From Escherichia coli (lineage in GTDB: Bacteria > Pseudomonadota > Gammaproteobacteria > Enterobacterales > Enterobacteriaceae), in assembly GCF_048403405.1 (NCBI RefSeq), contig NZ_CP183129.1: a DNA stretch of 64,000 nt, one strand, 5' to 3'. The translations under genes were made by a program, and so were the position numbers. Below, one piece after another: positions 16,234 to 16,756 of the stretch. Each line of letters opens with the position of its first letter. Position 1 is the stretch's first letter. The notes below the pieces were generated by a model. It was not told the origin of the DNA, searched no databases, and worked only from the letters and a program-made list of their open reading frames with translations.

Positions 16234-16235
16234 CC

Positions 16236-16262
16236 ATCAACGAAAAAGCCCACATCTGTGGG
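16236..16262. terminator. rho-independent terminator between ypjA and ssrA (bidirectional hairpin)
   Basis: Hairpin agcccacatctgtgggct; on the minus strand it is followed by a T-run (ssrA precursor terminator). Confidence 0.6.
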
Positions 16263-16393
16263 CTTTCATATCACCAAGAGCCGCGGCTCCTTTGCGTATC
16301 CTTTTATGTCTCCTCACCGTCTGGTCGGTGTCTTGCTGAGACTTCTAACTTCCTGTTTTTGTTGGTGTTGTCCTTGCACCGTCCAATCATGAT

Positions 16394-16756
16394 TGGTGGA
16401 GCTGGCGGGAGTTGAACCCGCGTCCGAAATTCCTACGTCCTCGGTACTACATGCTTAGTCAGTCTTTACATTCGCTTGCCAGCTGCGGACGGACACGCCA
16501 CTAACAAACTAGCCTGATTAAGTTTTAACGCTTCAACCCCAGGCAGGGCTTCCACGCGATCTCTTTTGGGTTTGACCTCTCTTGATCCCCGTCCTAAGAG
16601 CGGAGGCTAGGGAGAGAGGGCTCTAAGCAGGTTATTAAGCTGCTAAAGCGTAGTTTTCGTCGTTTGCGACTATTTTTTGCGGCTTTTTACGAGGCCAACC
16701 GCCCCTCGGCATGCACCTTGGGTTTCGCAAATCCCGTCGAATCCAGAATCAGCCCC
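16394..16756 (-). ncRNA. ssrA: tmRNA (SsrA, 10Sa RNA)
   Basis: Reverse complement begins GGGGCTGATTCTGGATTCGACGGG and ends ..GGACGCGGGTTCAACTCCCGCCAGCTCCACCA; contains the tag-template region (GCAAACGACGAAAACTACGCTTTAGCAGCTTAA); 363 nt. Confidence 0.95.

What the first reader, a model, noticed from the sequence alone, without database searches (positions are those of the whole stretch)
16234..16400. ssrA 3' end is directly adjacent to the autotransporter gene: unoccupied prophage attachment site
In E. coli K-12 the cryptic prophage CP4-57 (intA ... ) is integrated at the 3' end of ssrA, with ypjA lying beyond it. Here only about 160 bp, including a hairpin terminator, separate the ssrA 3' CCA from the ypjA stop codon, and no integrase or phage gene is present. 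This locus therefore looks like a naive or cured attB.
Basis: partly seen in the sequence, partly recalled or inferred. Interest (0 to 1): 0.4.

Follow-up and report, generated by a model that had tools for sequence, protein, structure and literature searches.

The report
Empty phage landing site at ssrA
This E. coli carries an intact tmRNA gene (ssrA) with no mobile element inserted at its 3' end, a common and already known state; the one less ordinary point is that the 160-bp spacer is a conserved, structured module also carried by ssrA-integrating phages.

Summary
Observation confirmed. ssrA lies on the minus strand at 16394-16756, and ypjA ends at 16233. Exactly 160 bp with a terminator hairpin (16245-16266) separate them, and there is no integrase or displaced ssrA fragment.

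K-12 with CP4-57 removed in silico aligns to the window without a gap (1971 bp, 97.3%). About a quarter of complete E. coli genomes (1384 of 5426) share this contiguous arrangement.

The site is not a CP4-57 excisant. Real excision in K-12 leaves ssrA deltaT357 (PMC10107115), as in the lab-cured strain DTU-1. The window keeps T357 and perfect cores for phiNP (25 bp) and LLS (29 bp).

The flank is not anonymous DNA:
- The spacer ("D", 16243-16393) is a discrete module, 82-91% identical to sequence beside attP in lambdoid ssrA phages (LLS, phiNP, prophages).
- It lies next to ssrA in several enterobacterial genera.
- It has covarying hairpins.
- It diverges 11% between E. coli lineages whose ssrA-smpB differ by about 0.5%.

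The 10.75 kb beyond it (ypjA, an invertase fragment, ypjCB, ileY) is absent from about 20% of E. coli and from E. whittamii. It is probably an older accretion at this hotspot.

Overall: an ordinary, known kind of locus with a modestly interesting flank.

The parts
16394..16756 (-). ssrA (tmRNA gene), 363 nt and intact. It differs from K-12 at one position (nt 320).
   Evidence: ARAGORN; Rfam RF00023, 292.8 bits; comparison with K-12.
16394..16422 (-). attB core region for lambdoid ssrA phages. 16394-16418 equals the experimentally defined 25-bp phiNP attP/attB. 16394-16422 equals the 29-bp LLS identity block.
   Evidence: Sequence compared with the 25-mer given in PMC6456863. The LLS alignment is and the LLS text in PMC12315714.
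16393..16440 (-). The 44-48 nt identity block shared with phages that carry only the ssrA 3' segment. These include SopEPhi, RE2010, SEN8, Cartapus and several Klebsiella phages.
   Evidence: query positions 160-203/207 at 98-100% identity.
16394..16408 (-). Segment duplicated, in degenerate form, at the CP4-57 right end in K-12 (psaA). This is the core region used by the P4-type IntA.
   Evidence: K-12 attR-side homology runs to window position 16408. psaA is annotated at 2777972-2777985.
16400..16400 (-). Complement of tmRNA T357. It is present here and is deleted in genuine CP4-57 excisants.
   Evidence: end reads CGCCAGCTCCACCA; PMC10107115; DTU-1 positive control.
16234..16393 (.). The 160-bp spacer between the ypjA stop codon and the ssrA 3' end.
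16243..16393 (-). Module 'D': the conserved ssrA 3' trailer plus terminator. Its left boundary is the same in every comparison made: E. coli D10, E. whittamii, the IAI39 prophage remnant, phage LLS and other genera.
   Evidence: At least 120 IMG/VR contigs hold its 19-mer core, in 115 unique variants.
16245..16266 (-). Intrinsic terminator hairpin (H1). On the ssrA strand it reads AAAGCCCACAGATGTGGGCTTTTTC. One stem pair covaries, G-C in 86 sequences and A-U in 22.
16278..16289 (-). Hairpin or palindrome H2, GAGCCGCGGCTC. A compensatory variant, GAGTCGCGACTC, occurs in the D10 lineage.
16308..16342 (-). Hairpin H3: outer stem GTCTC/GAGAC, inner stem CACCG/CGGTG. The inner stem lies inside the 19-mer used to collect homologues, so its invariance carries no information.
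16364..16380 (-). Hairpin H5, with a conserved AGGAC loop on the ssrA strand and a covarying stem. One pair occurs as AU, UA or CG and is paired in 94% of sequences, against a shuffle mean of 42%. Another pair occurs as GC or AU.
16383..16396 (.). Perfect 14-bp palindrome CCAATCA/TGATTGG that overlaps the tmRNA CCA end. It is nearly invariant.
11659..16233 (+). ypjA (autotransporter adhesin YpjA/EhaD), convergent with ssrA.
   Evidence: RefSeq annotation of the identical strain, shifted into window coordinates; ORF list.
11084..11251 (+). pinH-like fragment of a phage DNA invertase (pseudogene).
   Evidence: RefSeq note 'recombinase family protein, incomplete'. It is 80-84% nt identical to phage invertase genes. 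It matches phrog_125 at E=8e-16. It is 82.8% identical to the pin fragment of the strain 23070 ssrA prophage.
5488..16242 (.). A 10.75-kb segment that is variably present: an alpha-amylase-family gene, tRNA ileY at 8437-8512, ypjCB, the invertase fragment and ypjA. In E. coli D10 and E. whittamii a roughly 333-bp spacer takes its place. Its right edge is exactly the left edge of D.
   Evidence: The D10-type spacer is in 1104 of 5426 genomes.

Best explanation
This is a naturally unoccupied ssrA integration site.

Shown: the tmRNA gene is complete and carries T357, which forms the acceptor-stem G.U pair needed for charging. It is followed by a 150-nt trailer with an intrinsic terminator (module D) and then by the stop codon of the convergent ypjA. 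The arrangement equals K-12 minus CP4-57, base for base in register, but lacks the deltaT357 scar that IntA-mediated excision leaves. It is therefore the standing empty state found in about a quarter of E. coli, not a recent CP4-57 cure. The last 25-48 nt of ssrA match exactly the core sequences used by phiNP/LLS-type lambdoid phages and by the phages that carry only the ssrA 3' segment.

Inferred: the site is integration-competent. An incoming element would recombine within 16394-16440, supply its own copy of the ssrA 3' end, and push the displaced fragment plus D plus ypjA to its far end.

Shown for sequence, inferred for function: the flank belongs to the same traffic. D is a module that LLS/phiNP-type phages carry beside attP, on the side opposite int. 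There it is the last part of the leftward int transcript and holds its terminator. After integration the phage copy becomes the ssrA trailer and terminator, and the host copy ends up behind int.

Inferred history: D alleles are exchanged between phages and chromosomes. The ypjA to ileY segment beyond D is an older accretion at this hotspot, possibly the decayed distal end of a prophage.
For: - Gene and coordinates.
- Gap-free in-silico excision.
- Population: 1384 of 5426 genomes have ypjA-D-ssrA contiguous. 2895 of 5426 have an intact ssrA end followed directly by D.
- Not a CP4-57 excisant: T357 is present. Excision gives deltaT357 (PMC10107115). The lab-cured strain DTU-1 has a 362-nt ssrA, then 160 bp, then ypjA.
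- Exact cores: phiNP 25-mer; LLS 29 bp; 44-48 nt shared with phages carrying only the ssrA 3' segment.
- D in phages: LLS at 88.5%, annotated beside attP; phiNP, Ayreon, PhiR12 and the CT01 circular phage; at least 120 viral contigs.
- A complete lambdoid prophage in strain 23070 is bracketed by two D copies.
- LLS-family integrases lie 250-1600 bp from D, on the ssrA-fragment side.
- D lies next to full-length ssrA in E. whittamii, Lelliottia, Enterobacter, Klebsiella, Pseudenterobacter and Citrobacter. ssrA plus D is 91-93% identical to the window; D alone is 84-89%, against about 81% for smpB.
- Divergence steps up at the ssrA end: 11.3% in D against 0.3-0.6% in ssrA, the intergenic region and smpB.
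- Hairpin covariation, with G.U pairs mostly on the tmRNA-sense strand; fold z-score -2.9.
- Variable 10.75-kb segment with its edge at D. Phage invertase fragment. YpjCB equals phrog_30093.
Against: - Precise excision of an element whose displaced fragment keeps T357 (phiNP/LLS-type or SopEPhi/Fels-2-type) would leave no trace. Past occupancy by such elements cannot be excluded.
- The direction of transfer of D, host to phage or phage to host, is not resolved.
- D homologues were collected with an exact 19-mer, which inflates apparent conservation and fixes hairpin H3.
- ypjA has no phage homologue.
- The window holds no integrase and no relic attR. The 'decayed prophage' origin of the 10.75-kb segment therefore rests on layout, one gene fragment and the presence/absence pattern.
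- Transcription of D with ssrA is assumed, not shown.
Confidence: 0.85

Rival explanations
1. Cured attB: the strain or a recent ancestor carried CP4-57 or a close relative and lost it by IntA/AlpA-driven excision.
For: The junction is collinear with K-12 minus CP4-57. CP4-57 is excision-proficient in K-12 (PMC10107115).
Against: Excision in K-12 leaves ssrA deltaT357, an inactive tmRNA. The only genome among 5426 with a single-copy deltaT357 junction is the laboratory strain DTU-1. The window has T357. No CP4-57 sequence occurs in the window.
Confidence: 0.05
2. Truly naive site with a purely chromosomal flank. On this reading D is the ancestral enterobacterial ssrA trailer and terminator, conserved because tmRNA maturation needs it. 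Phages captured it from hosts, and ypjA to ileY is ordinary core-adjacent DNA that some lineages deleted.
For: D lies next to ssrA in many genera and in the minimal E. whittamii/D10 arrangement. Covariation and G.U pairs fit an RNA transcribed with ssrA. D always sits beyond the displaced fragment when D-less islands such as CP4-57 are inserted.
Against: D diverges 11% between E. coli lineages whose adjacent ssrA, intergenic region and smpB differ by 0.3-0.6%, and the step falls exactly at the att core. The E. whittamii D is 98% identical to the D on the prophage side in IAI39 but only 93% to the D10 host copy. K-12 works with an unrelated CP4-57-supplied trailer, so D is not required. A phage invertase fragment lies in the flank.
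Confidence: 0.25
3. D is chiefly protein-binding DNA: the attP arm with integrase arm-type sites and accessory-factor sites. On this reading its palindromes are binding sites, not RNA hairpins.
For: D lies about 20-170 bp from the crossover region. This is the size and position of a lambda-type att arm (established knowledge of lambda attP). The motif CACCGTC occurs twice, 62 bp apart. D co-occurs with LLS-family integrases.
Against: D persists beside unrelated integrases: the CT01 phage, whose integrase sits next to a dusA fragment, and Ayreon. Stems change by compensatory substitutions while the loops stay fixed. G.U pairs favour one strand. A two-copy 7-mer is weak evidence.
Confidence: 0.3

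Closest known systems
E. coli K-12 ssrA / CP4-57 / ypjA locus (attL, attR with pseudo-ssrA psaA)
   Same: Same genes, same order and same 160-bp spacer next to ypjA. The window equals K-12 with 2755956-2777985 removed, with no indel.
   Different: There is no CP4-57. The ssrA trailer is D rather than the CP4-57-supplied terminator. The window is also not identical to the experimental excision product, which lacks T357.
tDNA/tmDNA integration hotspots as catalogued by Williams and the Islander database, including the K. pneumoniae ssrA survey
   Same: Integration occurs at the 3' end of ssrA, with the gene regenerated and a fragment displaced. Several integrase families share one target, and the site is occupied in some strains and empty in others (PMC4383910 abstract; bioRxiv 10.1101/2020.11.02.365908; PMC10107115 Table 1).
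   Different: Nothing is different in kind. This is one empty instance of such a hotspot.
phiNP (Citrobacter rodentium) and LLS (E. coli) lambdoid phages that integrate at ssrA
   Same: The window holds their 25-bp and 29-bp cores exactly. Their genomes also carry D-like sequence next to the core: phiNP at 85.8% over 141 bp and LLS at 88.5% over 191 bp.
   Different: The passages read from the two papers describe only the 25-bp and 29-bp identities. The extended homology of about 115-150 bp to the host flank is not mentioned there. The full texts were not searched for it.
Lambda int - attP - sib/tI arrangement (retroregulation of int)
   Same: By position only. D is a structured sequence ending in an intrinsic terminator. 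It lies across the att core from int and in the sense orientation of the int transcript in LLS, the CT01 phage and the strain 23070 prophage. The lambda arrangement is cited from established knowledge.
   Different: No RNase III site is shown. The host carries a near-identical D, so int is still followed by a D after integration. The lambda logic, in which integration separates int from sib, would therefore not apply.
Phages whose attP holds long host-like 3' gene segments (phage 21 and e14 at icd; HP1 at a tRNA cluster)
   Same: Homology between the attP region and the host extends far beyond the crossover core, so the phage rebuilds the end of the target transcription unit. This comparison rests on established knowledge and was not tested here.
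   Different: Here the extension is non-coding DNA downstream of the mature RNA end.

Membership tests
tmRNA gene (Rfam RF00023) | Covariance-model score above the gathering threshold over the full model | tested here: met
   292.8 bits against 47, model positions 1-374.
tmRNA gene (Rfam RF00023) | Tag reading frame and an intact acceptor end (G.U pair with U357, then CCA) | tested here: met
   Tag ANDENYALAA. The 3' end reads CGCCAGCTCCACCA, identical to K-12.
tmRNA gene (Rfam RF00023) | Adjacent smpB | tested here: met
   ORF 16971-17453 on the minus strand. It is annotated smpB in the identical strain.
Unoccupied attB at a tDNA/tmDNA | Target gene intact, with no displaced 3' fragment or integrase downstream | tested here: met
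   No second ssrA or D copy in the 64-kb window. No CP4-57 sequence. The spacer holds no conserved ORF.
Unoccupied attB at a tDNA/tmDNA | The flank equals the flank beyond the far end of the element in occupied genomes | tested here: met
   Gap-free 1971-bp alignment to the K-12 in-silico excision product.
Unoccupied attB at a tDNA/tmDNA | Exact match to an experimentally defined core | tested here: met
   Window 16394-16418 equals the phiNP 25-mer TGGTGGAGCTGGCGGGAGTTGAACC.
Unoccupied attB at a tDNA/tmDNA | Supports integration in vivo | not testable with these tools
   This needs a lysogenisation assay.
CP4-57 excision product (cured K-12 type) | ssrA deltaT357 (end reads CGCCAGC-CCACCA) | tested here: not met
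   T357 is present. The literature criterion comes, and DTU-1 serves as the positive control.
Structured RNA element (D as pre-tmRNA trailer / int-operon 3' end) | Base pairs kept through compensatory changes in independent sequences | tested here: inconclusive
   H5, H2 and H1 show double changes, and pairing is far above the shuffle controls. However, the homologues share ancestry and were collected with a 19-mer. No R-scape-type test was run, and there is no Rfam family.
Structured RNA element (D as pre-tmRNA trailer / int-operon 3' end) | Transcribed | not testable with these tools
   No expression data were available.
Lambda-type attP arm | Repeated arm-type integrase sites plus IHF/Xis sites | tested here: inconclusive
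   Only CACCGTC, twice, 62 bp apart. No binding data.
Prophage remnant (segment 5488-16242) | Integrase, att repeats or structural phage genes | tested here: not met
   None were found. There is no relic ssrA fragment, and ypjA has no phage homologue.
Prophage remnant (segment 5488-16242) | Partial phage genes and presence/absence polymorphism at an att hotspot | tested here: met
   Invertase fragment. YpjCB matches phrog_30093. The segment is absent from D10-type E. coli (1104 genomes) and from E. whittamii.

The most novel reading that the evidence does not exclude
The roughly 150-bp module D is a functional, structured RNA element shared between enterobacterial chromosomes and lambdoid ssrA phages, and no curated family describes it. 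In the phage it would be the 3' end and terminator of the int transcript across attP. After integration it would become the tmRNA precursor trailer, while the host copy takes over behind int. Both transcription units would then keep equivalent 3' ends in either state. D alleles would be swapped by cycles of integration and loss, so the D allele would record past phage occupancy of an apparently empty site.
Probability: 0.3. Interest if true: 0.5.

Novelty: already known. Interest (0 to 1): 0.3.

Why it matters
The empty site itself matters little. ssrA is a textbook integration hotspot, and CP4-57 is known to be strain-variable.

Two practical points follow. First, T357 separates natural empty sites from CP4-57 excisants, which lose tmRNA activity and switch ribosome rescue to ArfA. 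A one-base check therefore tells whether a CP4-57-free strain has working trans-translation. Second, the spacer is a mobile, structured module. It shows that the DNA beside an att core can be exchanged with phages even where no prophage remains. This complicates calling any such site 'naive'. It also offers a possible marker of past lysogeny and a candidate conserved RNA element downstream of tmRNA.

Tried and rejected
- **Rfam on the spacer.** A permissive E-value scan found nothing beyond the tmRNA end. The best other hits were rsmX and isrB at about 20 bits, far below their gathering scores.
- **Small ORFs in D.** A 28-aa frame on each strand, read by eye, was rejected. LLS and other homologues carry stops or frameshifts there.
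- **Simple terminator scan.** It did not call the 16245-16266 hairpin and instead flagged a weak site at 16282-16296. The hairpin is supported by the repeat finder, the single-strand fold and covariation.
- **RNAalifold on the 113-sequence alignment.** It recovered only H3, H2 and part of H1, because gaps disrupt the terminator columns. My first register for H5 was off by one and was corrected.
- **A relic attR or second D copy at the left edge of the 10.75-kb segment.** None was found.
- **ypjA as phage cargo.** tblastn against 50,697 phage records gave only distant autotransporter hits.
- **Williams 2003, 'Traffic at the tmRNA gene'.** It could not be read: the PMC id I recalled is not held, and one search call was malformed.
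- **CP4-57-like elements elsewhere in this strain's genome.** This could not be checked, because only the 64-kb window is available and the genome search tools cannot be restricted to one accession.

Full report
**1. What is in the sequence**

ARAGORN and Rfam agree on a complete tmRNA gene on the minus strand at 16394-16756 (292.8 bits; tag ANDENYALAA). The long plus-strand ORF ends at 16233. A 901-bp query across the junction is 100% identical to E. coli TUM14771. In that strain the genes are annotated ypjA, ssrA and smpB, followed by ratA, yfjF, bamE and recN. The spacer is exactly 160 bp (16234-16393). It holds a perfect 10+10 inverted repeat at 16245-16266, which on the ssrA strand is followed by TTTTTC.

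**2. Comparison with K-12**

In MG1655, CP4-57 is annotated from 2755941 to 2777971. The 14-bp pseudo-ssrA psaA follows, and ypjA ends 160 bp beyond that. I joined K-12 sequence up to the ssrA CCA to the sequence after psaA. This construct aligns to the window over 1971 bp at 97.3% with no gap. The 22-kb interior of CP4-57 gives no blastn or tblastx hit in the window. The site is therefore empty with respect to CP4-57, and the junction is the predicted one.

**3. Naive or cured**

Onodera et al. (PMC10107115) show that AlpA-induced excision of CP4-57 leaves ssrA deltaT357 (end reads CGCCAGC-CCACCA). This tmRNA is inactive, and ribosome rescue switches to ArfA. The window has CGCCAGCTCCACCA; T357 corresponds to window position 16400.

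I queried a 56-nt deltaT357 junction against 5426 complete genomes. Thirteen records matched exactly. Of the two I inspected:
- The laboratory strain DTU-1 carries it as its only ssrA. The gene is annotated as 362 nt, with ypjA 160 bp away.
- The natural strain KL53 carries it as a displaced fragment at the end of a prophage.

The other eleven exact matches have a second match elsewhere in the genome and no ssrA annotation under the exact match, so they appear to be displaced fragments as well. The same search shows 2895 of 5426 genomes with an intact ssrA end followed directly by the start of the spacer.

The window is therefore the standing natural empty state and not a CP4-57 excisant. Loss of an element whose displaced fragment keeps T357 cannot be excluded, because that event leaves no mark in ssrA.

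**4. How common is the arrangement**

The contiguous ypjA-spacer-ssrA arrangement is present in 1384 of 5426 genomes. In the others:
- ssrA is followed by an element that lacks the spacer, with the spacer and ypjA displaced, as in K-12.
- ssrA plus spacer is followed by something other than ypjA.

**5. The spacer is a module**

In every comparison, homology to the window begins at 16239-16243, just left of the terminator hairpin, and runs to the ssrA end. I call this module D.

D in phages:
- Phage LLS carries D at 88.5% over 191 bp, directly beside its annotated attP and tmRNA pseudogene. Its integrase lies on the other side of the core. The LLS paper notes only a 29-bp identity to ssrA.
- phiNP carries 141 bp at 85.8%. 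Its 25-bp attP/attB was mapped experimentally and equals window 16394-16418.
- Ayreon, the PhiR12 phages and a circular 43.7-kb phage deposited as a plasmid in strain CT01 carry D as well.
The homologues collected across all loci fetched up to that point give 115 unique variants.
- In 13 of those 120 viral contigs the best integrase match is to an LLS- or strain 23070-type integrase. In most of these it lies 250-1600 bp from D, on the side of the ssrA fragment.

D in integrated prophages:
- Strain 23070 has a complete lambdoid prophage of this type between glaH and ssrA. It is bracketed by two D copies. One is next to the full ssrA, and the other has a 33-nt ssrA fragment next to glaH.
- IAI39 has ssrA, D and then a prophage remnant. 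An IS3 has truncated the remnant, and the truncation runs into ypjA.

D in other species: among one-genome-per-species representatives, D lies next to full-length ssrA and smpB in E. whittamii, Lelliottia, Enterobacter hormaechei, Pseudenterobacter, two Klebsiella species and a Citrobacter. ssrA plus D together is 91-93% identical to the window. D alone is 84-89% identical, and the neighbouring smpB is about 81%.

**6. D has its own history**

Between the window and E. coli D10, divergence is 11.3% in D. It is only 0.3% in ssrA, 0.5% in the ssrA-smpB spacer and 0.6% in smpB. The step falls exactly at the ssrA 3' end.

D copies linked to ypjA (window, K-12, several viral contigs that include ypjA) are 95-100% alike, whereas all other D copies are 82-92% identical to the window. 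The E. whittamii D is 98% identical to the D on the prophage side in IAI39, but only 93% to the D10 host copy.

This pattern is expected if the DNA distal to the att core is replaced through integration events. It is not expected from vertical descent of a chromosomal spacer.

**7. D looks structured**

The 158-nt ssrA-sense trailer folds with a z-score of -2.9. Across 113 variants:
- The H5 stem (16364-16380) has one pair that occurs as AU, UA or CG. It is paired in 94% of sequences, against a shuffle mean of 42%. A second pair occurs as GC or AU.
- H2 (16278-16289) has a double change from C-G to U-A.
- The terminator has a switch from G-C to A-U in 22 variants.
- G.U pairs are mostly on the tmRNA-sense strand.

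There are caveats. The homologue set was collected with a 19-mer that lies in H3, the sequences are related, and no formal covariation test was run. Rfam has no family here. In LLS, the CT01 phage and the strain 23070 prophage, D lies downstream of int in the sense orientation. In the phage it would therefore end the int transcript. That position resembles lambda tI/sib, but this is an analogy only.

**8. Beyond D**

E. coli D10 and E. whittamii have glaH, a roughly 333-bp spacer, D and then ssrA. They lack ypjA, the invertase fragment, ypjCB, ileY and the amylase-family gene. Window 5488-16242 is therefore a variably present 10.75-kb segment, and its right edge is the left edge of D. The D10-type spacer is in 1104 of 5426 genomes.

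Phage-related content of the segment:
- It contains a fragment of a phage DNA invertase: 80-84% nt identity to phage invertase genes and a match to phrog_125.
- That fragment is 82.8% identical to the pin fragment of the strain 23070 prophage. There the fragment sits in the corresponding position, between the tail-fibre genes and the cargo next to D.
- YpjCB matches phrog_30093 over its full length.

Against a prophage origin, ypjA has no phage homologue, and the window holds no integrase or relic att site. I read the segment as an older accretion at this hotspot, possibly the decayed distal end of a prophage, with moderate confidence.

**9. Verdict**

The locus is an ordinary, known kind of thing: an empty ssrA attachment site. 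This work adds three points:
- A one-base criterion (T357) shows that the site is not a CP4-57 excisant.
- The window holds exact cores for several phage families.
- The spacer is a conserved, probably structured module that is shared and exchanged with lambdoid ssrA phages.

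Noticed in passing
window 8437-8512: ARAGORN calls this a tRNA-Met (anticodon CAT). RefSeq annotates the same gene in the identical strain as tRNA-Ile (ileY-type, CAT read as Ile after modification). It lies inside the variably present 10.75-kb segment.
   Followed up: partly
L004 (NZ_CP081794.1, E. coli CT01 'plasmid unnamed3', 43.7 kb circular): This looks like a circular phage genome deposited as a plasmid. It keeps D and a degenerate ssrA 3' fragment next to dinI and an integrase that is followed by a dusA 5' fragment. That arrangement suggests a swap of attachment specificity that left the old ssrA-type arm behind.
   Followed up: partly
L006 (E. coli IAI39, NC_011750.1 2932500-2949000): A prophage remnant lies next to ssrA. 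It is cut by an IS3-family element that also truncates ypjA (annotated as an AIDA repeat protein missing its C-terminus).
   Followed up: partly
L140 and L150 (MAG contigs labelled Collinsella sp. and Lachnospiraceae): These short MAG contigs carry the E. coli ypjA-D junction at about 99% identity. They are most likely E. coli contamination of the bins.
   Followed up: no
L137, L145, L148 (Enterobacter hormaechei, Pseudenterobacter timonensis, Klebsiella indica): The same 401-aa ORF (MSLRFRQTFTLFPGV...) lies immediately beyond D in three genera. In K. indica a P4-type integrase gene sits further out. This may be a small island family with D at its ssrA-proximal end.
   Followed up: no
L160 (E. 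coli KL53) and 11 other natural genomes: A long displaced ssrA fragment with the same deltaT357 deletion sits at the end of a P2-like prophage next to D and ypjA. The one-base deletion is therefore not peculiar to CP4-57.
   Followed up: partly
window 16383-16396: A perfect, nearly invariant 14-bp palindrome, CCAATCATGATTGG, overlaps the tmRNA CCA end. In the precursor it could pair the CCA with the trailer. Its role is unknown.
   Followed up: partly
window 125-201, 34626-34751, 38057-38195, 41193-46203: Other Rfam matches in the window: naRNA4 (REP-type), the Phe leader, RyfD sRNA, and a complete rRNA operon with tRNA-Glu and a StyR-44 element. None bears on this finding.
   Followed up: no
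L133 (E. albertii NBRC 107761): Only the ssrA-proximal part of D (from window position 16307) is retained. It is preceded by a different autotransporter-like ORF with no nucleotide similarity to ypjA.
   Followed up: no
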